Assembly (NCBI GenBank): GCA_026016245.1
Contig: CP061211.1
Span: forward strand, 270,001 to 302,000
Source of the DNA: Candidatus Pacearchaeota archaeon
GTDB taxonomy: Archaea; Nanobdellota; Nanobdellia; Pacearchaeales; UBA284
Length of the DNA: 32,000 nucleotides
Direction of reading: 5' to 3'
The position numbers were made by a program, and so were the translations under genes. The notes under the pieces are model-generated. The model did not search any database and had not been told where the DNA came from. It saw nothing but the letters and a program-made list of their open reading frames with translations. Each line of letters begins with the position of its first letter. Within the stretch, counting starts at the first letter, position 1. This document shows positions 12,756-31,035 of the stretch, one piece after another.

Positions 12756-13475
12756 TTATTTTAAAACTCCTCTAACATAACCAAGATTCTCTTTTTTTAA
12801 ACCAAGTGCTTCTTTTAACCCCTTATATTCAAAATTAAACATTTTTTTGATAAATTCTGGAAAAAGATCATTTGATATCCTCACTTTATATTCTGTATAA
12901 TGAGATAAATAAATATGTGCTGTTGTTTGTCCAATTGCATATTTAGAAGCAATTTCTAAACTTTTTCTTGCCTTTTCTTTTCCAAACTCTTTCAGTCTAG
13001 AATTTATGAAGGGAGTTTGAATAATTCTTTCGTGTAAATCCTTTTTAAAATTTAAATCTTTTTTATAGAATTCTTCCATGACGTTATATAATTTAATAAA
13101 ATCTGAATCTTCATATAGTTCTGAAATAAAACAAACATCAAATTCACAGCCTCCCCTTTTTATTTTTCTTAAAGTCCTTTCCATTTCTCCTTTTAATCTT
13201 CTTAATTTCTTTTCTGCTTCTTCAGAACATAAATCTTGAAATGCCACTATATTATGAACATAAATTTTATCCCATGGAATAAGCAATATTTTTTTTGCAT
13301 ACTGAAGCAGATTTATGGTTATATCTCTTATATTTTTTCTTGAATAGTATCTTGAACCAAAACTGATGCCAGCAAAACAGCTCAAGGTTTTTGGCTCATA
13401 TAAAAATTTTTTGCCAAGTCCATATGTTTCTAATATCTCTAACTTTCTAATGGGTTTTATATTTTTAATCATCAT
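12756..13475 (-). CDS. Cyclodipeptide synthase (CDPS)-like protein (putative, divergent)
   Basis: 239 aa. AGISFGSRYYSRKNIRDITINLLQYA parallels my recollection of AlbC, IGISAGNSYFSQKNTVMLLQWA. That alignment places Ser38 at the AlbC Ser37 acyl-enzyme position. It also has a basic helix (EKKLRRLKGEMERTLRKIKR), an ISEL...F...F segment, and SKYAIGQ where CDPSs have Y-x-x-x-E (Tyr179 conserved, Glu replaced by Gln183). The alignment was done by eye only. Confidence 0.5.
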   Translation of the reverse strand: MMIKNIKPIRKLEILETYGLGKKFLYEPKTLSCFAGISFGSRYYSRKNIRDITINLLQYAKKILLIPWDKIYVHNIVAFQDLCSEEAEKKLRRLKGEMERTLRKIKRGGCEFDVCFISELYEDSDFIKLYNVMEEFYKKDLNFKKDLHERIIQTPFINSRLKEFGKEKARKSLEIASKYAIGQTTAHIYLSHYTEYKVRISNDLFPEFIKKMFNFEYKGLKEALGLKKENLGYVRGVLK

Positions 13476-14860
13476 TTTAATTTTTTATATACCAAGGATA
13501 AAAATTCATCAAAAATTTTTTTATACCTTGGATGTTTTTTGATGAATTTAGAAATTCTCTTTTTATATTCTTCAGAGAAATAAAAAGTCCTTGACATCTC
13601 TCCTTGTATTTCTTTTAATTCGTTACCGCTAAAACAGGGATGGTTGAAAACTAAGTGATTTACATCATACTTTGACTTATCCTTTTCAATTAAAAATCCT
13701 TTTTCTCTTATTATTTTGTGATCCAATGTTCCTGGAAAAGGAGTATAAATTGGAAAGGAAGCTATATGAATATTATAATAAGGCAGTCTATTCATGGTTT
13801 CTTTTATCTGCTCTCTAGTTTCCTTAGGCCATCCAATAATTAAGAAAGTTTCACTAAGAATTCCTATTTCTGACGAATAGTTCAAAATTTCTTGTATTTT
13901 ATTTGAAGGACATAATTTTTTTGTTTCTTTCTTGATCCATGGGGGTTGTAGTATATTCTCTAATCCCCAACTTATCTTTACGCAACCCGCTTGCTTCATC
14001 TTTTTTAATAAACCATAACTTATGTTTCTAAACCCAGAAAGAATAGTCCAATAAATATTGAGATTTTCTTGGATTAAACTATCACACAATTCTTCTACTT
14101 TTTTAGGATTTAGAGTCATATTTAAATCTGTAAAGAAGATATAATTTATTCCAAAATTTTCTTTTAGATTTTTAAGTTGCCTTGTTATTGTCTCTGGTTT
14201 TCTATAAATGATTTTTCTACCTAAGACATTTGGGGAAGCACAAAAACTACAATTAAAAGTGCATCCCCTAGAGTATTCTAAAAAAGCTGTTTTTCTCTTT
14301 TTTGTTGGTGGATAAGACAAATAAGTAGATTTTTGTTTGAAGATCTTCTCTGTTCTAAATGGGTCTGGTAATTTATCTAAATTTTCTATCCTTTGCCTTC
14401 TTGGATTAACAACAATCCCTTCCCCTAAAAAAGCAATACCTTTTATCTTTTCATAATCTTTATTTTTTTCAATAGATGTTAATAATTCTCTGAATGTTTC
14501 TTCACCCTCCCCAAGAATAGCAAAATCAAACCCTTCTTTGATAATAGAAGGCTCTGCTGAGGGATGGTAGCCTCCAACGATAGATATTAGATTGGATTTT
14601 ATTTTTTTTAATTCTTTATTAAATTTTAGGTAAAAATCAATTCTATTTGTTGTACTTGAATATAAAATAATATTTGGATTAAAAGCAATTATTTCTTCCA
14701 TATCTTTTGTGTCTTTTGGAATGAATAAATCAACTTCATGTCCTTGACCTTGGGCTACAGCTAAAATACATTCTAGACCTAAAGGCTCATCTAAACCCCT
14801 AATTACTTCTTCAATTGTTTCTATATCCTCATGAATTTTGTAAACTCCAGCAACTTTCAT
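13472..14860 (-). CDS. B12-binding-domain radical SAM enzyme (class B-like)
   Basis: CxxxCxxC cluster motif in YSRGCTFNCSFCAS. The N-terminal ~130 aa is Rossmann-like, as in the cobalamin-binding domain of this family (...ILYSSTT...SIVGGYHPS...DFAILGEGEETF). Its TGA overlaps the downstream ATG (ATGA, 13472-13475). Confidence 0.85.
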   Translation of the reverse strand: MKVAGVYKIHEDIETIEEVIRGLDEPLGLECILAVAQGQGHEVDLFIPKDTKDMEEIIAFNPNIILYSSTTNRIDFYLKFNKELKKIKSNLISIVGGYHPSAEPSIIKEGFDFAILGEGEETFRELLTSIEKNKDYEKIKGIAFLGEGIVVNPRRQRIENLDKLPDPFRTEKIFKQKSTYLSYPPTKKRKTAFLEYSRGCTFNCSFCASPNVLGRKIIYRKPETITRQLKNLKENFGINYIFFTDLNMTLNPKKVEELCDSLIQENLNIYWTILSGFRNISYGLLKKMKQAGCVKISWGLENILQPPWIKKETKKLCPSNKIQEILNYSSEIGILSETFLIIGWPKETREQIKETMNRLPYYNIHIASFPIYTPFPGTLDHKIIREKGFLIEKDKSKYDVNHLVFNHPCFSGNELKEIQGEMSRTFYFSEEYKKRISKFIKKHPRYKKIFDEFLSLVYKKLK

Positions 14861-24859: not shown

Positions 24860-26989
24860 ATGAAATCAGCAGAGCTCAAGAAGAGATATATAGAATTTTT
24901 CAAAAAGAAAGGACATAAAGAAATTCCTAATGCTAGTCTTATTCCAGAACATGATCCAAGTGTGTTATTCACGACAGCTGGAATGCATCCTCTAGTTCCT
25001 TTCCTTCTTGGACAGAAACATCCACAAGGCAAAAGGTTAGTTAATGCTCAAAAATGTTTAAGAACACAAGATATAGATGAAGTAGGCAATCCAATGCATC
25101 TCTCTTTTTTCGAAATGTTAGGAAACTGGTCATTAGGAGATTATTGGAAAAAGGAAGCAACTGAATACAGTTATGAATTTTTAACAAAAATTCTGAAGAT
25201 TGATCCAGAAAAATTATATATCACATGTTTTGCTGGAGATAAGGATGTTCCTAGAGATGAAGAGACAGCAAAAATCTGGCAATCTTTAGGCATTCCAAGA
25301 GAAAGAATTTACTTTTTGAGCAAGGAAGAAAATTGGTGGGGGCCTGTAGGAGAAACTGGGCCTTGCGGACCTGATACAGAGATGTTTGTTGATACAGGAA
25401 AAAAATCCTGTAGTAAGAATTGCCGTCCAGGATGTCCTTGTGGTAAATATTTTGAAATCTGGAATGATGTTTTTATGCAATACAACAAGACAAAAGTAAA
25501 AGCAATTCTCATCGATGCAATTCATTGTTTGTTTGACGAAAATAGAAAGATAAATAAAGAATTATTAGATTCGTTGATAACTTACGATATGTCTTTAATA
25601 ATTGTTACTAATGCTAATCTCGAAGACAAGAAAAACAAACCTCTTACAGAATTAATAAATAAATTTAAAGAGAAAATAGAAATTTTTACTTGTTTTAATA
25701 ATCCAAGTAAAAAAGATTCCAAATATTTTGAAATGTTATTAAAAGAATATAATCTAAAACCAGACGAAGTTATTTATTTTGATCATTCAACAGACAATAT
25801 AAACTCTGCTAGAAAAATAGGTATTAACTCAAAATTATACAAATCTCCTAAACAAATCAAAAAATTCATAGAAGAAAACCTATATTATTACCAATCACTA
25901 AAACAAAAAAATGTTGATACAGGGATGGGGGTTGAAAGAACAGTTACAATACTTCAGGGGGAAAAATCTGTTTATGAAATTAAAATACTAAAGCCAATAA
26001 TGGATAAAATTAAAGAACTAGCTAAGATAAAAGAGCCAGATGAAAAACAACTAAGAAGTATGAGGATAATTACTGACCATATCAGAGCCTCTGTATTTAT
26101 ACTTGGAGATGAAAATTCTGTTGTTCCTAGCAATGTTGATCAAGGTTATATTTTAAGGAGATTTATCAGAAGAGCTATGAGATATGGAAGGCTTCTAGGA
26201 ATGCAAAATTTTATTCAAGAAATAGCAAAAATTGTTATAAAAATTAACAAAGATTATCCTCTAAAGAAAAAGGAAAAATTTATTTTATCTGAATTAAAAA
26301 AAGATGAGGAAAAATTCAGAAAAACTCTTGAAAAAGGCCTTAATAAATTTAATAGGATGGCGGTAGATAAGAAAATCTCAGGTAAAGAAGCCTTTCTTTT
26401 GTTCCAGTCTTATGGTTTTCCAATAGAAATGACAAAGGAACTAGCAGAAGAAAAAAATATTGAGATTGATGAAAAAGGATTTTATCTTGAATATAAAAAA
26501 CATCAAGAAATATCAAGAGTTGGTGCTGAAAAGAAATTCAAAGGTGGTTTATCAGATGCAAGTTATGAAACAACAAAACTTCATACAGCTGCTCATCTTC
26601 TATTATATGCATTAAGAAAAGCTTTAAATCCAGATATTGTGCAAAAAGGTTCTAATATCACCCCAGAAAGAATAAGGTTTGATTTTAATTTTGACAGAAA
26701 ATTAACAGATGATGAAATAAAGAAAGTAGAGAAAATAGTTAATGATAAAATCAAGCAAGAAATTGAAGTTGTGAGAAAAGAGATGCCTGTTACAGAGGCA
26801 AAAAAAATAGCAAAATCACCTTTTGAATATAAAAGCAAGATTGTTTCTGTTTATATTATTGATGATTGCATTGAAATTTGTATGGGGCCTCATGTTAAAA
26901 ATACAAAAGAGTTAGGAAAGTTTAAAATAACAAAACAAGAGGCTGTTGCGGGCGGAGTTAGAAGAATTAGGGCTGTTTTAGAATCTTAA
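24860..26989 (+). CDS. alaS: Alanyl-tRNA synthetase, bacterial-type core, short form without a C-Ala domain, carrying an internal HAD-like insertion
   Basis: The N-terminus (MKSAELKKRYIEFFKKKGHKEIPNASLIPEHDPSVLFTTAGM...FFEMLGNWSLGDYWK...GPCGPDTEMF...FEIWNDVFMQYN...VDTGMGVER) matches the bacterial AlaRS pattern. Editing-domain motifs HTAAHLL (HxxxH) and CMGPH (CxxxH) are present. Confidence 0.9.
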   Translation: MKSAELKKRYIEFFKKKGHKEIPNASLIPEHDPSVLFTTAGMHPLVPFLLGQKHPQGKRLVNAQKCLRTQDIDEVGNPMHLSFFEMLGNWSLGDYWKKEATEYSYEFLTKILKIDPEKLYITCFAGDKDVPRDEETAKIWQSLGIPRERIYFLSKEENWWGPVGETGPCGPDTEMFVDTGKKSCSKNCRPGCPCGKYFEIWNDVFMQYNKTKVKAILIDAIHCLFDENRKINKELLDSLITYDMSLIIVTNANLEDKKNKPLTELINKFKEKIEIFTCFNNPSKKDSKYFEMLLKEYNLKPDEVIYFDHSTDNINSARKIGINSKLYKSPKQIKKFIEENLYYYQSLKQKNVDTGMGVERTVTILQGEKSVYEIKILKPIMDKIKELAKIKEPDEKQLRSMRIITDHIRASVFILGDENSVVPSNVDQGYILRRFIRRAMRYGRLLGMQNFIQEIAKIVIKINKDYPLKKKEKFILSELKKDEEKFRKTLEKGLNKFNRMAVDKKISGKEAFLLFQSYGFPIEMTKELAEEKNIEIDEKGFYLEYKKHQEISRVGAEKKFKGGLSDASYETTKLHTAAHLLLYALRKALNPDIVQKGSNITPERIRFDFNFDRKLTDDEIKKVEKIVNDKIKQEIEVVRKEMPVTEAKKIAKSPFEYKSKIVSVYIIDDCIEICMGPHVKNTKELGKFKITKQEAVAGGVRRIRAVLES
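25496..25894 (+). other. In-frame HAD-superfamily-like domain inserted in AlaRS (about residues 213-345)
   Basis: KAILIDAIHCLFD is motif-I-like (Asp nucleophile, D+2 position is Ile, as in D-x-Y-G-T-L dehalogenase-type variants). LIIVTNA matches motif II, PSKKDSKYFEMLLKEYNLKPDEVIYFDHSTDNINSARKIGI matches motifs III/IV, partly degenerate. It replaces the short loop that bacterial AlaRS has between FMQ(F/Y)N and the L-P-x-K-x-(V/I)-DTGMG segment. Confidence 0.6.
26966..26984. repeat. Direct repeat copy 1 (ATTAGGGCTGTTTTAGAAT) at the live alaS 3' end
   Basis: A 19/19 identity with 27985-28003. It extends to 23 nt with one mismatch (AAG[A/G]ATTAGGG...). Confidence 0.85.
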
Positions 26990-27874
26990 TCTCTCTTTTT
27001 TTAACATAGATATCAAAAATCTGACAAATGATCCCAAATTGCCAGTTCTGTGCATTTTTTGTAAAACTTGATAATACTTGAACTTTCTTTTTTTTGGAAT
27101 ATTTATCATAGGATAGTGACTCTTATGCATTATAAAATTCATTAATAATCTCCCAACTCTGCCATTACCATCAACAAAGGGATGTATTCTTTCAAATTCT
27201 GTATGAAAATAAGAAGCTAAAACTAGCGGATGCAGTTTCTTTTTATTTGTACCATACCATCTTAATAATTTTGCCATTTCTCTAGGAACATCTTGCGGTT
27301 TAGGTGGGATTGATCTTCCAACAAATACCTGAATAGTTCTATATCTGCCTATTTGAGAAATCAAATCTTGTCTTAGCGCATTTATAATAACCAGCTTATG
27401 AATCTCTAAAATAAATTCTTTTGTCAGGTCTTTTTTATAATTTAAGATATAGTCAAATGCTTTTTTATGATTTATTGTTTCATTAATCTCCCTCAAGGAT
27501 TTTGATTTTGGAACAATGCCTTCAAATAGCAAATAAGATGTTTCTGATAAAGTTAGGGTATTTCCTTCTATACCTGTTGAGTCATAAGTAAATAAAGAAC
27601 AAAATGCCTCATATCTATTTTCATAATTTTCCTTGGGTTCTTTAGAAAAATCCCTTTTTATTTTTTCTAAAAATTCGGTTTCTTCTTTTGTCAAGATTAC
27701 ACTAAAAACATTCAACTTTTTATCTGCATCCTTTTCTTTTCTTTTAAGCTCTTCTCTTGTCAGATTAACCCCGAGATATATTCTTTCTTTTTTTACTCGC
27801 TTTCCTTCTCTTATTGCCTTAGCCCTATAATAATATTTTTTTTTGTTTTTTTCTTGAATTTCTGTATGAACCAT
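26978..27874 (-). CDS. Fic domain protein (putative AMP-transferase) with an internal inhibitory-helix motif
   Basis: The canonical Fic motif HPFVDGNGRVGR (HPFx[D/E]GNGRxxR) is present. An upstream STGIEG fits the autoinhibitory [S/T]xxxE[G/N] motif. Its last codons and stop overlap the alaS 3' end by 12 nt. Confidence 0.9.
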   Translation of the reverse strand: MVHTEIQEKNKKKYYYRAKAIREGKRVKKERIYLGVNLTREELKRKEKDADKKLNVFSVILTKEETEFLEKIKRDFSKEPKENYENRYEAFCSLFTYDSTGIEGNTLTLSETSYLLFEGIVPKSKSLREINETINHKKAFDYILNYKKDLTKEFILEIHKLVIINALRQDLISQIGRYRTIQVFVGRSIPPKPQDVPREMAKLLRWYGTNKKKLHPLVLASYFHTEFERIHPFVDGNGRVGRLLMNFIMHKSHYPMINIPKKRKFKYYQVLQKMHRTGNLGSFVRFLISMLKKERLRF

Positions 27875-27984
27875 GATATAATTATGACTACATTATTTAT
27901 AAATTTTTCTATTATGTAGTCATATAAATTATGACTACTTTGTTGGATTTTATCCTATTTTTGTAGCCATAACGTATAAAAAGG
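26985..27984. mobile_element. About 1-kb single-gene (Fic) insertion cassette bounded by the 19-bp direct repeats
   Basis: This is the segment between the two repeat copies, and it carries only the Fic gene and its promoter/operator. No recombinase lies within it, so mobility is inferred from the duplication alone. Confidence 0.45.
27883..27924. promoter_or_regulatory. 11-bp inverted repeat enclosing the Fic TATA box (candidate operator)
   Basis: TATGACTACAT (27883-27893) and ATGTAGTCATA (27914-27924) are perfect reverse complements. They flank the palindromic TTTATAAA (27896-27903), which is centred about 25 nt upstream of the Fic ATG (27874). A third, direct copy AATTATGACTAC is at 27927-27938 (compare 27880-27891). 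Confidence 0.5.
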
Positions 27985-28005
27985 ATTAGGGCTGTTTTAG
28001 AATAA
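27982..28005 (+). pseudogene. Relic alaS 3' end (…RIRAVLE-stop)
   Basis: AGG ATT AGG GCT GTT TTA GAA TAA reads RIRAVLE*, the same peptide as the live alaS end (RRIRAVLES*). Its stop codon directly abuts the leuS stop codon (28006-28008). Confidence 0.55.
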
Positions 28006-31000
28006 TTACTCAATATAAATTGCTGGTTTTCCTGGTTTAGCTTTCTTTGCTTTCTTTTTTGGATCATAAGTTATTTTGTTAGATGTTTGAAAATCAACTT
28101 TACAATTAAATTCCTTTTCAAGTTCTTTTGGATTATAAACCTTAAGCTCTTTAGGGATAACATAAACATATATTCCTTTGGGTCTTGTTCCTAATATTTT
28201 AACAATCTGTCTTATATCTTGCTTTAACTTTTCTTGGATTTCTTCTTCTTTCTCAAATGCAAGATTAATCTTTTTTTCATTGTATTTTGGCCATGATTCA
28301 AGTGAAATGAATGTCTTATTCCATTGATGCCATAATTCTTCTGTTATGTGTGGACAGAAAGGATGAAGCATTTTCAAAAAAGCTTCTGCTGTTTTTTTAT
28401 CAATTTCTGTGAAATAATCAAATAATTTTCTGATTTTTATCACAGCAAGATTATATCTAAATTCCTTTATATCCTGAGTTACTTCTTTTATTGTCTTGTT
28501 TAATTTGCTTTCTAATCTAGGATCTGATTTTCCAAATTTAAGTTTTGTGAAATAGCCCATAACTCTATTAATAAAACGCAAACTTCCTTCAACACCTTTA
28601 TCACCCCATTTAAGGTCTTTATCAGGGCTAGCCATTGAAACTAAAAATAATCTGGCAGTATCAATTCCATATTTTTTACTGACTTCTTCTGGCAAAACAA
28701 CATTCCCATATGATTTAGACATTTTTCTGCCATCAGGGCCATGTAATACACCCTGATTAAACAGTTTTAGAGTAGGTTCATCAATATTGAGCAAACCTAA
28801 ATCTCGCAAAAATTTAGTATAGAATCTGAAATAAATAAGATGGCCTGTAGCATGTTCTTTTCCACCAATATATTGATCAATTGGCATCCAATATTTTACT
28901 TTTTTCTTATCGAAGATTTTATTTTTGTTTTTAGGATCACAATATCTCAAGAAATACCAAGAAGAATTAACAAATGTATCCATAGTATCTGTCTCTCTTT
29001 TTGCATCTTTTTTACATTTAGGACATTTGACTTTAATCCAGGTTTTTACAGTTTCAAGAGGATTTCCTTTTCCAAATTTAACTTTTTCAGGAAGTTTTAT
29101 TGGTAAATCTTTTTCAGGAACAGGAACAATACCACATTTATCACAATAAATTATAGGAATAGGGGTGCCCCAATATCTCTGCCTGCTTATAAGCCAATCT
29201 TTTAATTTATATTGAATTGTATGTTTGCCTTTGTTTTTTTGTTGTAAGGATTTTGAAATTTCAATGATTGCTTTTTCACTTGTCATCTTGTTAAATTTTC
29301 CAGAATTAACAAGAATACCATAATCAACATAAGCTTGCTTCATTGTTTTCTCACTTAACTTCTTATCTTTTTTTGGCTGTATGACAACTCTAATAGGAAT
29401 TTTGTATTTCTTGGCAAATTCAAAATCTCTCTGATCATGAGCAGGAACAGCCATTACCATTCCTGATCCATACTCTGCAAGAACAAAATTTCCTACATAA
29501 ACAGGAACTTTTTCATTATTAATTGGGTTTATTGCATATTTTCCTATAAAAACCCCTTCCTTGTCCATCTTATCAATATCTTCTTGCTTAATTCCTCTTA
29601 ACTTGCTAACAAAACTCATGACTTCTTTCTCTTGTTTTGTTCCTTTCACTAATTCTGGAAGTTCTGGATGCTGAGCAGATATAACCATGAAAGTCACACC
29701 AAAAATAGTATCTGCTCTTGTTGTGAATATTGGCCATTTTTTTCTTGAAATTACTTCTTTTAATAATTCTGGAAATTCTTGTGTTCCCATATGTTTCTCA
29801 AGAAAATGTCCTTTGTCTTTTAATGTAGTTGGGGGGACATCTAATTTCTCAGAAATTATCCTTACACTTTTTCTTATAGATTCATTTTCATTATTTGAAA
29901 CAAAGATAATAATTTCTCCAATATTCTCTTTAATTTTATTGTCAATTTTAAATCTCAACAAATCTTCAAAGGGCGTTTTTTCCTTTGCATAAGCAATTGC
30001 AGGAGCAATCAAGATTAATTTCTTTATCCTTTTCTTTGTTTCTCCTAACCACCTAATCAAAAAACCTCCTCCCCCGCTATGTCCAATTAAAACACTATTT
30101 TCATTAATATTCAAATTTTTAAATTCTTTCTTCCAATCATTATATTTTGGATTCCAGTTATTAGGCATTAATGGAGCTTCTGTTTTAATTCCTTTTTTTT
30201 CAAGTTGTTTCTTAATCCAAGGAATCCAATGTCTTTCATTTTGCGGAGGTTCTCCTCTAGCTAACTTTTCTTTATCTTTTTTATTTACTCCATGAACAAC
30301 CACGCAGTTAATATCCTTATCCTCAATCTCAAAATCAATATCAACACCATGACTCTTGCCTATCCAATATTTTTGCATTAACTTAATATCTTCTGGCCAA
30401 TCCTTTAGTTTGTCAATTTTATCATAAAGCTCTGAAGCATATTTTGTAATTTTGAAAAACCACTGCTCTAATTGCTTTATCTCAACTTCTGTATCTTCAT
30501 GACGCCAACATTTTCCATTAATAACTTGCTCGTTTGCCAGAACAGTTTTACATCTTGGACAGTAATTAACAGGAGCTTTCTTTCTGTAAGCTATTCCCTT
30601 CTTAAACATCTGCAAGAAAATCCATTGATCCCACTTGTAATAACTAAGATCATGAGTCATAACTAAGCGAGACCAATCATAACTTATGCCAAGACCTTTC
30701 TGTTGTTTGATAAAGTTGGAAATTGCTCTATCTGTATATTTTTTAGGATGAATTTTTTCTTTGATAGCTGCATTTTCTGCTGGTAATCCTAAAGAATCAT
30801 AGCCCATTGGATAAAGAACATTATAGCCTTGCATTCTCATAAATCTAGCATAAATATCCCCAATAGTATAATTAAAAGCATGACCCATATGCAAGCCATA
30901 AGCAGAAGGATATGGAAACATCTCTAATACATAGAATTTCTTCTTTCCCTTCTTCTCACTAACAACAAAGATTTTTTTCTTTTCCCACTCTTGCTGCCAC

Positions 31001-31035
31001 TTTTTTTCGATGGCTTGGAAGTTAAATCTTGCCAT
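28006..31035 (-). CDS. leuS: Leucyl-tRNA synthetase, bacterial-type, carrying an internal alpha/beta serine-hydrolase-like insertion
   Basis: HMGH is present (PYPSAYGLHMGHAFNY). GLPAENAA, the WIGKSHGVDIDF...FTTRADTIFG entry into CP1, AVPAHDQRDFEFA, RDWLISRQRYWGTPIP and a KMSKS loop (RKMSKSYGN) are colinear with bacterial LeuRS such as the E. coli enzyme. Confidence 0.92.
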   Translation of the reverse strand: MARFNFQAIEKKWQQEWEKKKIFVVSEKKGKKKFYVLEMFPYPSAYGLHMGHAFNYTIGDIYARFMRMQGYNVLYPMGYDSLGLPAENAAIKEKIHPKKYTDRAISNFIKQQKGLGISYDWSRLVMTHDLSYYKWDQWIFLQMFKKGIAYRKKAPVNYCPRCKTVLANEQVINGKCWRHEDTEVEIKQLEQWFFKITKYASELYDKIDKLKDWPEDIKLMQKYWIGKSHGVDIDFEIEDKDINCVVVHGVNKKDKEKLARGEPPQNERHWIPWIKKQLEKKGIKTEAPLMPNNWNPKYNDWKKEFKNLNINENSVLIGHSGGGGFLIRWLGETKKRIKKLILIAPAIAYAKEKTPFEDLLRFKIDNKIKENIGEIIIFVSNNENESIRKSVRIISEKLDVPPTTLKDKGHFLEKHMGTQEFPELLKEVISRKKWPIFTTRADTIFGVTFMVISAQHPELPELVKGTKQEKEVMSFVSKLRGIKQEDIDKMDKEGVFIGKYAINPINNEKVPVYVGNFVLAEYGSGMVMAVPAHDQRDFEFAKKYKIPIRVVIQPKKDKKLSEKTMKQAYVDYGILVNSGKFNKMTSEKAIIEISKSLQQKNKGKHTIQYKLKDWLISRQRYWGTPIPIIYCDKCGIVPVPEKDLPIKLPEKVKFGKGNPLETVKTWIKVKCPKCKKDAKRETDTMDTFVNSSWYFLRYCDPKNKNKIFDKKKVKYWMPIDQYIGGKEHATGHLIYFRFYTKFLRDLGLLNIDEPTLKLFNQGVLHGPDGRKMSKSYGNVVLPEEVSKKYGIDTARLFLVSMASPDKDLKWGDKGVEGSLRFINRVMGYFTKLKFGKSDPRLESKLNKTIKEVTQDIKEFRYNLAVIKIRKLFDYFTEIDKKTAEAFLKMLHPFCPHITEELWHQWNKTFISLESWPKYNEKKINLAFEKEEEIQEKLKQDIRQIVKILGTRPKGIYVYVIPKELKVYNPKELEKEFNCKVDFQTSNKITYDPKKKAKKAKPGKPAIYIE
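29740..30312 (-). other. In-frame YdeN/RBBP9-type (PF06821-like) serine hydrolase domain inserted in LeuRS (about residues 242-432)
   Basis: VVVHG...HWIPWIKKQLEKKGI...PLMPN..NPKYNDW...SVLIGHSGGGGFLIRWL...IKKLILIAP...IIIFVSNNENES...KDKGHFLEKHMG.QEFPELL parallels the YdeN family layout, with a GHSxG nucleophile elbow and a GHF histidine. It sits between FEIEDKD and WPIFTTRADT, where E. coli LeuRS has only a short hairpin loop. Confidence 0.65.

What the first reader, a model, noticed from the sequence alone, without database searches (positions are those of the whole stretch)
26966..28005. Fic gene is a discrete insertion between convergent alaS and leuS, flanked by 19-bp direct repeats and a relic alaS stop
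ATTAGGGCTGTTTTAGAAT occurs at 26966-26984, inside the last codons of alaS, and again at 27985-28003. The identity extends to 23 nt with one mismatch. The second copy reads in frame as RIRAVLE-TAA, an alaS C-terminus whose stop directly abuts the leuS stop at 28006. The simplest reading is that alaS and leuS were once tail-to-tail. About 1 kb carrying only a Fic gene then inserted into the alaS 3' end, regenerating a functional end (…RAVLES*). That is the pattern left by site-specific integration or target duplication. The Fic stop codon is itself supplied by the repeat. No integrase or transposase is in the cassette, so the mobilisation mechanism is unknown.
Basis: seen in the sequence. Interest (0 to 1): 0.65.

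Follow-up and report, generated by a model that had tools for sequence, protein, structure and literature searches.

The report
Mobile Fic cassette at alaS end
About 1 kb of DNA carrying one Fic (protein-AMPylating, defence-type) gene was spliced into the last codons of the alanyl-tRNA synthetase gene of a small DPANN archaeon, duplicating 23 bases of that gene's end; similar recombinase-less one-gene cassettes sit against tRNA genes in related archaea, so the insertion is real and moderately unusual.

Summary
The 19-mer is exact at 26966-26984 and 27985-28003, and extends to 23 nt with one synonymous mismatch. A relative (L095/L096, AlaRS 83% identical) has the predicted empty site: alaS TAA abuts leuS TTA, and its 23 nt align to both window copies. 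The window-only DNA is 26985-27980 (996 nt). It holds only a FICD-like class II Fic gene with its own TATA box and palindromic boxes. One correction: the Fic stop codon is Fic's own (homologues end LRF-stop), so the 7-nt overlap is junction microhomology. The wider picture is new. This Fic gene (70-85% identical in more than 120 protein clusters of DPANN archaea) lies in unrelated contexts. It is strongly enriched at tRNA 3' ends (14 of 70 loci). In at least 7 other loci it forms a 1.0-1.6 kb unit bounded by locus-specific direct repeats of 14-32 nt. In some loci it travels inside 5.7-7.1 kb elements that carry a tyrosine integrase and have similar repeats. The alaS 3' end was hit again by other cargo in L093 and L040. 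The most likely mechanism is att-type site-specific integration by a recombinase supplied in trans. This is inferred, not shown.

The parts
24860..26989 (+). alaS (AlaRS, 709 aa), now ending ...RAVLE-S-stop
   Evidence: Pfam tRNA-synt_2c 2.6e-125 and tRNA_SAD. Close relatives end ...RAVLE*.
26962..26984 (+). Direct repeat copy 1 (23 nt, exact core 26966-26984): the working 3' end of alaS
   Evidence: Aligns to L095 7725-7747.
26985..27980 (.). Inserted DNA (996 nt), absent from the empty site of L095/L096. Repeat-to-repeat period is 1019 nt.
   Evidence: blastn of the window against L095. GC is 27-31%, like the flanks.
26985..26989 (+). New alaS tail: the last two bases of the Ser709 codon (TCT, 26984-26986) plus stop TAA, read from the antisense of Fic's codons Leu-Arg
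   Evidence: Sequence. Fic C-terminus ...KKERLRF*.
26978..27874 (-). Fic gene (298 aa): FICD-like class II Fic with HPFVDGNGRVGR and the inhibitory motif STGIEGN. Overlaps alaS convergently by 12 nt.
   Evidence: Pfam PF02661 6e-24. PDB FICD 5e-37. Foldseek match to FICD. PADLOC PDC-S04 2e-42 and SoFic 8.5e-35.
27875..27980 (-). Fic promoter/operator region. + strand coordinates: box TATGACTACA 27883-27892, TATA box (TATTTATAAA) 27894-27903, inverted box TGTAGTCATA 27915-27924, further boxes TATGACTAC 27930-27938 and GTAGCCATAA 27963-27972.
   Evidence: The same box-TATA-box layout occurs in 57 of 67 non-redundant Fic loci, with both arms covarying.
27981..28005 (+). Direct repeat copy 2 (27981-28003) plus AA: relic alaS end reading RIRAVLE-TAA, contiguous with the leuS stop as in the empty site
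28006..31035 (-). leuS (LeuRS, 1009 aa), convergent partner of alaS
   Evidence: Pfam tRNA-synt_1, editing and anticodon domains. Synteny in L093, L095, L097 and L181.

Best explanation
Shown: in the ancestor of this DPANN archaeon, alaS and leuS were tail-to-tail with abutting stop codons. A 996-bp segment then entered the last codons of alaS. It carries one gene, a FICD-like, self-inhibited Fic AMP-transferase of the SoFic/PDC-S04 candidate-defence type, with its own TATA box flanked by palindromic boxes. After insertion, 23 bp of the alaS end stand on both sides. The left copy keeps alaS functional and adds one Ser. The right copy is a dead relic still abutting leuS.

Inferred mechanism: the cassette arrived as a small circle carrying an att core matching the conserved alaS 3' end. 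It was integrated Campbell-style by conservative site-specific (or very-short-homology) recombination. The catalyst was a recombinase not encoded on the cassette, most plausibly a tyrosine integrase of the family that accompanies Fic in larger elements.

Inferred function: Fic represses its own promoter through the paired boxes, perhaps through its 58-aa N-terminal beta3-alpha domain. It acts as a toxic AMPylating effector when activated, either as abortive-infection defence or as an addiction module. This would explain why it persists as a lone gene.
For: Insertion:
- Empty site in L095/L096 with the identical junction. Its 23 nt align to both window copies.
- Only the window's AlaRS has the extra Ser.
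- An identical second assembly exists.

Mobility of the Fic unit:
- More than 120 clusters at 70-85% identity, nearly all 298 aa, in unrelated contexts.
- DNA similarity among the loci compared runs from about 110-170 nt upstream of the ATG to the stop codon and no further.
- Flanking direct repeats: 7 of 58 non-redundant loci reach p<=0.01 against a mismatched-pair null, where 0.6 are expected.
- Repeat-to-repeat lengths are 1019-1564 nt.

att-type rather than random insertion:
- 14 of 70 loci have a tRNA 3' end facing the cassette, against 1.4% expected (binomial 7e-13).
- In L115 and L157 the repeats are tRNA-Asp and tRNA-Gln 3' ends.
- L130 is bracketed by an intact tRNA-Val and a diverged about 50-nt partial tRNA-Val with compensatory T-stem changes. 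One copy therefore came from another lineage.
- The alaS 3' end was reused by other cargo: L093 (22-nt relic KIRAILE*, 1066 nt away) and L040 (61-nt repeat, period 355).
- A tyrosine integrase family lies next to Fic in L002, L144, L120/121 and L114/116.
- L116 and L121 are 7.1- and 5.7-kb elements bounded by 21- and 19-nt repeats, in L116 at a tRNA-Gly 3' end.
- Literature: archaeal attB sites inside protein-coding genes, and immobilisation by integrase loss, are described (PMC8371274).

Fic biochemistry and regulation.
Against: - No recombinase lies in the cassette or among the 20 window ORFs tested. The rest of the genome was not available.
- No circular form or excision product was seen.
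- The cores differ from locus to locus, so one integrase with one att cannot explain all cassettes.
- No conserved terminal motif lies inside the repeats.
- The 7-nt microhomology at the Fic-side junction also fits an end-joining or template-switch event.
- In L116 and L121, Fic is not next to an att site.
- Three other occupants of the alaS-leuS junction (L097, L180, L181) and L183 show no relic.
- The N-terminal domain has no Pfam or PDB match, so its DNA binding is a guess.
Confidence: 0.55

Rival explanations
1. Illegitimate insertion with target duplication. A linear or replicating Fic fragment was captured at a staggered break, or by microhomology-mediated template switching, at the alaS end. 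The 23-nt duplication comes from repair synthesis and no site-specific recombinase is involved.
For: - 7-nt microhomology (TTAGAAT = reverse complement of Fic's own ATTCTAA) lies exactly at the left junction.
- The cassette has no recombinase and no terminal inverted repeats.
- Repeat lengths vary from 14 to 61 nt between loci.
- In a compact genome only insertions that regenerate gene ends would survive, which could mimic site preference.
Against: - The same alaS end was used independently with different cargo.
- Enrichment at tRNA 3' ends is strong.
- The L130 repeat copies have separate evolutionary histories.
- A 61-nt duplication in L040 is far longer than known repair or transposase duplications (background knowledge).
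Confidence: 0.2
2. Remnant of a larger integrated element. An integrase-bearing element of the L116/L121 type integrated at the alaS end, and later deletions removed everything except Fic, which is retained because it is addictive or useful.
For: - 5.7-7.1 kb elements with integrase, ORF X and Fic, bounded by similar repeats, exist.
- Integrase loss is a known way of fixing acquired DNA (PMC8371274).
- L124 keeps an integrase fragment near Fic.
Against: - Two deletions would be needed, each ending within about 0-20 nt of an att copy.
- The Fic stop overlaps the left repeat, and only about 10-20 nt separate the right repeat from the conserved Fic upstream region.
- At least six independent Fic-only units have almost the same size (1019-1240 nt), with no recognisable integrase or ORF X fragments.
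Confidence: 0.13
3. Recombinase-free Campbell insertion. A Fic circle excised from the alaS site of another lineage by recombination between its repeats was taken up and integrated by host homologous recombination across the about 20-bp conserved alaS end.
For: - Differences between repeat copies are synonymous or compensatory in the window (AGA/AGG), in L093 (2 of 3) and in L130, as expected if one copy evolved in another functional gene.
- The alaS end is highly conserved at the DNA level among relatives.
Against: - About 20 bp is far below the homology usually needed for RadA-type recombination (background knowledge).
- It does not explain how the first insertion arose, or how new targets were acquired.
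Confidence: 0.1
4. Chance repeat or assembly artefact. Fic is an old resident gene and the 19-mer is coincidental.
For: A 19-nt repeat somewhere in 32 kb occurs in about 5% of random sequences. A chance exact 19-mer (23-mer) match also exists in a T4-like phage contig.
Against: - Empty site with the identical junction.
- In-frame relic with a stop codon abutting leuS.
- A second independent assembly.
- Among the 7 close relatives examined, the Fic gene at this junction is unique to the window.
Confidence: 0.01

Closest known systems
Integrative elements with tyrosine integrases that target tRNA genes or the 3' ends of protein genes (archaeal pNOB8-type, non-suicidal; review PMC8371274)
   Same: The insertion regenerates the target's 3' end and leaves attL/attR-like direct repeats of about 15-60 bp. 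A displaced partial copy of the target remains. Targets are tRNA 3' ends in many Fic loci and a protein gene's end here. Related Fic genes sit inside such elements together with an integrase (L116, L121).
   Different: The window's unit is only about 1 kb, holds a single cargo gene and encodes no integrase. The cores differ between loci although the cargo is the same.
Recombinase-less elements mobilised in trans: CIMEs of streptococci and IMEX elements that hijack XerCD (background knowledge, not tested here)
   Same: att-flanked DNA without its own recombinase, which depends on an enzyme supplied by another element or by the host.
   Different: These are known from bacteria. CIMEs are deletion derivatives of ICEs, and IMEX elements use the dif site. 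Here the targets are alaS and tRNA ends in DPANN archaea, and the repeat is not dif-like (only ATT...AAT is palindromic).
Tycheposons of Prochlorococcus (10.1101/2020.12.28.424599)
   Same: A streamlined genome without classical transfer systems. Cargo elements integrate at tRNA genes and leave partial tRNAs. Repeated integrations and degenerate remnants build variable islands, and defence cargo is carried.
   Different: Tycheposons as defined carry integrase and usually replication modules, and span several kb. The Fic units carry neither.
Integron gene cassettes
   Same: Single-gene mobile units of about 1 kb with no recombinase of their own, inserted at a recurrent site. Different cargoes occupy the same site in relatives.
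   Different: There is no attC-like element, no attI/IntI platform and no cassette array. The Fic cassette brings its own promoter, and the target is the coding 3' end of an essential gene.
FICD/HYPE-type class II Fic enzymes and the SoFic / PDC-S04 single-gene defence candidates (PMC12249575)
   Same: Fic core with HPFxDGNGRxxR, an N-terminal inhibitory (S/T)xxxE(G/N) helix, and strong HMM and fold matches.
   Different: A unique 58-aa N-terminal beta3-alpha domain replaces the TPR (FICD) or wHTH (SoFic) parts. NCBIfam SoFic equivalog score is 43 against a cutoff of 550. The host is archaeal, and the target and any defence role are untested.

Membership tests
Fic/Fido AMP-transferases, class II (FICD-like) | Catalytic motif HxFx(D/E)GNGRxxR | tested here: met
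   HPFVDGNGRVGR at aa 231-242. These residues are invariant in 34 homologues. Pfam PF02661 E=6e-24.
Fic/Fido AMP-transferases, class II (FICD-like) | Intramolecular inhibitory helix motif (S/T)xxxE(G/N) N-terminal to the core | tested here: met
   S99-T-G-I-E103-G-N, invariant. It aligns with the FICD inhibitory helix.
Fic/Fido AMP-transferases, class II (FICD-like) | Fic fold | tested here: met
   Foldseek match to FICD, E=1e-10, probability 1.0. The model is only moderate (pLDDT 67.5).
Fic/Fido AMP-transferases, class II (FICD-like) | AMPylation or de-AMPylation activity on a protein target | not testable with these tools
   Biochemistry is needed.
SoFic / PDC-S04 anti-phage defence | Match to the system's HMMs | tested here: inconclusive
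   PADLOC PDC-S04 2e-42 and SoFic 8.5e-35. The NCBIfam SoFic equivalog scores only 43 bits against a cutoff of 550.
SoFic / PDC-S04 anti-phage defence | Protection against viruses | not testable with these tools
   No experimental system is available.
Site-specific integrative element (tyrosine-integrase type) | Direct repeats (attL/attR) that duplicate the 3' end of the target gene, which stays intact | tested here: met
   23-nt repeat, intact alaS and an in-frame relic.
Site-specific integrative element (tyrosine-integrase type) | Empty attB in related genomes | tested here: met
   L095/L096.
Site-specific integrative element (tyrosine-integrase type) | Same attB used repeatedly | tested here: met
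   alaS-end relics flank other cargo in L093/L094 and L040. Scores are 29 and 48 against a null maximum of 24.
Site-specific integrative element (tyrosine-integrase type) | Integrase encoded by the element | tested here: not met
   Only Fic lies in the 996 nt. There is no integrase homologue in the window. Integrases occur next to Fic at other loci only.
Site-specific integrative element (tyrosine-integrase type) | Excision or a circular intermediate | not testable with these tools
   Raw reads are needed.
DDE-type insertion sequence / transposon | Terminal inverted repeats and a transposase | tested here: not met
   No inverted repeats at the ends and no shared terminal motif among 9 bounded cassettes.
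DDE-type insertion sequence / transposon | Short target duplication of fixed length | tested here: not met
   Repeats of 14, 14, 15, 20, 23, 27 and 32 nt at Fic cassettes, and 22 and 61 nt at other alaS-end cassettes.
Integron cassette | attC recombination site at the cassette's 3' end, and an attI/IntI platform with arrays | tested here: not met
   DNA downstream of the Fic stop is not conserved between loci. No array or IntI was seen. The palindromic boxes flank the TATA box upstream instead.
Two-gene Fic toxin-antitoxin (class I Fic with separate antitoxin) | Adjacent small antitoxin gene carrying the inhibitory helix | tested here: not met
   No second ORF lies inside the cassette. The inhibitory motif is internal to Fic.

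The most novel reading that the evidence does not exclude
DPANN archaea may harbour a so far undescribed class of trans-mobilised, promoter-bearing single-gene cassettes (Fic, and other cargo such as the ORF250 and ORF101 units). These cassettes would plug into the conserved 3' ends of tRNA and aminoacyl-tRNA-synthetase genes, regenerating the gene end and leaving 14-61 nt repeats. This would be an integron-like way of shuffling defence genes in ultra-small genomes, using a recombinase encoded elsewhere or a host enzyme.
Probability: 0.3. Interest if true: 0.75.

Novelty: new variant of a known kind. Interest (0 to 1): 0.55.

Why it matters
DPANN archaea have tiny genomes and depend on hosts, and how they gain accessory and defence genes is poorly understood. 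This case is a clean, datable gene gain: empty site, filled site and relic are all in hand. The gained gene belongs to a family that has repeatedly landed at tRNA and aaRS gene ends without carrying a recombinase. If trans-mobilisation is confirmed, it would identify a minimal unit of horizontal transfer in these organisms and give a ready marker (3'-end duplications) for finding more. It also supplies a conserved operator and N-terminal-domain pair, and a FICD-like archaeal Fic, as testable material for Fic regulation.

Tried and rejected
1. The exact 19-mer (in fact 23-mer) hit in IMG/VR (L182) looked like a possible viral attP. The contig is a T4-like phage replication module (gp43, RegA, gp44/62, gp45) and the match lies inside an RHH-like ORF (..LIRAVLESY..). 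I treat it as coincidence.
2. Fic homologues in viral contigs: none found with the peptide patterns used. In the phage and plasmid databases, matches reach only about 40% identity at most and are all bacterial.
3. An integrase or transposase in the window: none, by tblastn with the L002 integrase and the Y1 transposase and by Pfam on 20 ORFs.
4. Terminal inverted repeats or a shared end motif in the cassettes: none.
5. I suspected that the N-terminal beta3-alpha domain is an AP2 / integrase-arm-type DNA-binding domain. It has no Pfam hit and no significant Foldseek hit (best E=0.5) despite a confident model (pLDDT 91.6). The idea is kept only as a guess.
6. Partial tRNAs by Rfam at E<=1: only full tRNAs were found.
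7. alaS-end relics next to the other junction occupants (L097, L180, L181, L183) and in more distant DPANN loci (L013, L014, L031, L034, L045): none above the null. The L039 match (score 28) lies inside a membrane-protein ORF and is not counted.
8. Exact look-up of the window's LeuRS, to find population variants: not on record.
9. Compositional anomaly of the cassette: none.
10. Two literature searches for Fic in DPANN or archaeal integrative elements found no prior description.


Full report
**1. The observation**

The window is AT-rich (31.5% GC). Around the finding it encodes three genes:
- alaS, 24860-26989 on the + strand, 709 aa.
- A Fic-family gene, 26978-27874 on the - strand, 298 aa.
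- leuS, 28006-31035 on the - strand, 1009 aa.

ATTAGGGCTGTTTTAGAAT is present exactly twice, at 26966-26984 and 27985-28003. With one mismatch the repeat is 23 nt, at 26962-26984 and 27981-28003. It is the longest exact direct repeat in the window. Random sequences of this size and composition reach 19 nt in 5 of 100 trials, so length alone proves little.

The position is what counts. Copy 1 is the working end of alaS (...RRIRAVLE-S-stop). Copy 2 reads in frame RIRAVLE-TAA, and its TAA (28003-28005) touches the leuS stop at 28006-28008. A separate Logan assembly (L001) has the identical 4-kb structure, which excludes an assembly artefact.

**2. The empty site**

NCBI names for the Fic and AlaRS homologues place the organism among DPANN archaea (Nanoarchaeota / Pacearchaeota). 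The five closest AlaRS proteins are 82-86% identical over the shared parts. Their contigs share the window's gene order: serS, M23 peptidase, metallophosphatase, radical-SAM, methyltransferase, alaS, then convergent leuS and an S49 peptidase.

In L095/L096 alaS and leuS abut with no base between the stops...CGAAGGATTAGGGCTGTTCTAGAATAA|TTATTCAATATAAAT... This is the arrangement preserved by the window's relic, AAGGATTAGGGCTGTTTTAGAATAA|TTACTCAATATAAAT. In blastn, L095 7725-7747 aligns to both window copies, and 26985-27980 (996 nt) has no counterpart.

All close relatives, and most of 120 AlaRS homologues, end ...(V/I)LE-stop. Only the window ends ...LES. The extra Ser and the new stop are read from the antisense of Fic's last codons. 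The single mismatch between the copies (AGA vs AGG) is synonymous, and the relic carries the L095 variant. The insertion is therefore real, derived, and young relative to the roughly 20% nucleotide divergence from L095.

**3. What was inserted**

The insert holds one ORF. The protein has these features:
- The Fic motif HPFVDGNGRVGR and the class II inhibitory motif STGIEGN, both invariant in homologues.
- Human FICD as best sequence and fold match (5e-37; Foldseek 1e-10).
- Matches to the PADLOC models PDC-S04 (2e-42) and SoFic (8.5e-35). It does not reach NCBI's SoFic equivalog cutoff.

Its first 58 residues fold confidently (pLDDT 91.6) into three beta strands and a helix with no Pfam or PDB match.

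Upstream lie a TATA box (TTTATAAATA, about 29 nt before the ATG) and the inverted boxes TATGACTACA / TGTAGTCATA on either side of it, plus two further boxes. The same layout occurs in 57 of 67 non-redundant homologous loci with 9-10 of 10 complementary positions, where the shuffled maximum is 8. At least six different arm sequences always change together. This is the signature of an operator for a dimeric binder, and the only protein that travels with it is Fic. Autoregulation is my inference.

The cassette's GC content equals that of its flanks.

**4. A correction to the finding**

Fic homologues at unrelated loci nearly all have 298 aa and most end L-R-F-stop. Several use the same ATTCTAA. 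The stop codon is therefore Fic's own. The 7 nt TTAGAAT at the right end of copy 1 are common to the alaS end and, in reverse complement, to the Fic end. This is a junction microhomology.

**5. The Fic unit is mobile**

More than 120 protein clusters at 70-85% identity exist. Their contexts are unrelated: next to an integrase and a HEPN/NTase pair, next to RFC genes, next to ribosomal protein genes, and so on. Among the loci compared, DNA similarity runs from about 110-170 nt upstream of the ATG to the stop codon and ends there. None of the 80 metagenome loci pairs Fic with alaS or leuS.

I aligned the upstream region against the downstream region of 58 non-redundant loci and compared the scores with 1,500 mismatched pairs. 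Seven loci reach p<=0.01, where 0.6 are expected. Twelve reach p<=0.026, where 1.5 are expected. The bounded units measure 1019 (window), 1023, 1039, 1053, 1142, 1148, 1231, 1240 and 1564 nt and contain only Fic. The repeats are locus-specific, at 14-32 nt.

**6. Target preference**

In 14 of about 70 distinct loci a tRNA gene has its 3' end facing the cassette within 350 nt. From the tRNA density of control DPANN loci, 1.4% is expected (binomial 7e-13).
- In L115 and L157 the repeats are the 3' ends of tRNA-Asp and tRNA-Gln.
- In L130 an 1148-nt Fic unit lies between an intact tRNA-Val and a diverged 50-nt partial tRNA-Val. Its T-stem (GGAGG/CCTCC vs GGCGG/CCGCC) and acceptor strand differ in a compensated way. 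That copy once belonged to another functional tRNA, as expected for an element-borne att site.

**7. The alaS end is a recurrent target**

I searched 81 alaS loci for a second copy of the last 32 nt within 5 kb downstream. Three distinct loci scored clearly above every control (null maximum 24):
- The window (score 41).
- L093/L094 (score 29): AATAAGAGCTATTTTAGAATAA, reading KIRAILE-stop, lies 1066 nt after the real end and encloses ORF76 and ORF250.
- L040 (score 48): a 61-nt repeat with 2 mismatches and a period of 355 nt, enclosing ORF101.

Among seven close relatives, the alaS-leuS junction holds the following:
- nothing (L095)
- Fic (window)
- the ORF250 family (L093, L183)
- ORF96 (L097)
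- ORF154 (L180)
- ORF192 (L181)

The last three, and L183, show no relic.

**8. Where a recombinase could come from**

A tyrosine integrase family lies within 1-1.5 kb of Fic in L002/L101, L144, L120/L121 and L114/L116. The four are 55-59% identical to the L002 integrase, and the L116 member gives an XerA-like hit in NCBIfam. Three of them repeat the module integrase, ORF X, Fic.
- L116 is a 7.1-kb element bounded by a 21-nt repeat at the tRNA-Gly 3' end.
- L121 is a 5.7-kb element bounded by a 19-nt repeat.

Archaeal attB sites within protein-coding genes, fixation of acquired DNA by integrase loss, and an integrase (Int-pTN3) with homology-type activity are all documented (PMC8371274). Tycheposons offer a bacterial parallel in streamlined genomes.

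**9. Weighing the mechanisms**

Four points favour att-type integration by a recombinase acting in trans:
- The same site was reused with different cargo.
- The tRNA 3'-end bias is strong.
- Repeat lengths match those of the integrase-bearing elements.
- In some loci the two repeat copies have separate histories.

Four points weigh against it:
- No recombinase lies in the cassette or in the window.
- No circle has been seen.
- The cores differ from locus to locus.
- No conserved terminal motif exists.

A repair or template-switch insertion is supported by the 7-nt microhomology. It does not explain site reuse or the 61-nt repeat.

A deletion remnant of a larger element would need two deletions ending within a few bases of the att copies, repeatedly and independently.

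I therefore put the insertion itself at above 0.95 and the trans-recombinase mechanism at about 0.5.

**10. Verdict**

It is not a new principle: integration into gene 3' ends with att duplication is classical. It is an unusual variant, a recurrent, recombinase-less, about 1-kb single-gene Fic cassette in DPANN archaea, here caught with its empty site.

Noticed in passing
window 25502-25888 (alaS, aa 215-343): AlaRS carries a 129-aa HAD-like in-frame insert (Pfam HAD_2, 8e-6). Its five closest relatives (82-86% identical, 581-583 aa) lack it. Full-length matches of 702-730 aa at only 55-61% identity suggest that more distant AlaRS carry an insert at the same place (HAD_2 is recorded for P0151 and P0152), so its distribution is patchy.
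   Followed up: partly
window 29737-30312 (leuS, aa 242-433); L093 8799-9428: LeuRS carries a 192-aa Ser_hydrolase (alpha/beta hydrolase) in-frame insert. It is absent from L095 (819 aa) and present in L097 (1013 aa). In L093 a free-standing 209-aa Ser_hydrolase gene overlaps the leuS 3' end and is 70% nucleotide-identical to the window's insert.
   Followed up: partly
window 27883-27924 and about 70 Fic loci: The inverted boxes on either side of the Fic TATA box covary. Examples are TATGACTAC/GTAGTCATA, TACGTCCAC/GTGGACGTA, TACGTCTAC/GTAGACGTA and ACGGCTAC/GTAGCCGT. Spacing is constant, and the TATA box lies about 29 nt before the ATG, so the mRNA is probably leaderless.
   Followed up: yes
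Fic aa 1-58 (window 27701-27874, - strand); P0277, P0269, P0301, P0305, P0310: The confident beta3-alpha N-terminal domain has no Pfam or PDB match and occurs in only about 166 clusters at 50% identity. Besides Fic, it heads proteins with a PEP-utilizers mobile domain, Helicase_C, or a class II aaRS core (tRNA-synt_2b).
   Followed up: partly
L116 3299-3823, L121 3172-3822, L144 1677-2261: ORF X, which lies between the integrase and Fic in the three-gene module, shows a PDIVF...A(I/L)EIETG...K pattern. By eye this resembles a PD-(D/E)xK nuclease. There is no significant Pfam hit.
   Followed up: no
L040 6702-6762 and 7057-7117: A 61-nt direct repeat (2 mismatches) covers the last 29 nt of alaS plus 32 nt beyond. 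It brackets a 101-aa ORF of unknown function in a Woesearchaeota genome.
   Followed up: partly
L121 4001-4894 and 6066-6959: One 5.7-kb integrase element carries two 297-aa ORFs. The first is a Fic homologue. The second has the same length but its homology to Fic was not checked.
   Followed up: no
window 12756-14860: A 239-aa ORF with a weak cyclodipeptide-synthase-like hit (4.6e-5, below the Pfam cutoff) lies next to a B12-binding radical-SAM enzyme. This could be a small tRNA-dependent peptide-modification pair.
   Followed up: no
L182 5741-5763 (IMG/VR UViG_3300009103_002410): A T4-like phage contig contains an exact 23-nt match (ATTAGGGCTGTTTTAGAATCTTA) to the window's alaS/Fic junction, inside an RHH-like ORF. 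I judge this a coincidence.
   Followed up: yes
L013-L092 (genome-contig scan): The short (about 580 aa) AlaRS type of this archaeon has relatives annotated as CPR bacteria, Clostridia and Spirochaetes. The Spirochaete relatives are 68-74% identical over the first about 210 residues only. This suggests a mosaic or horizontally exchanged catalytic core.
   Followed up: no
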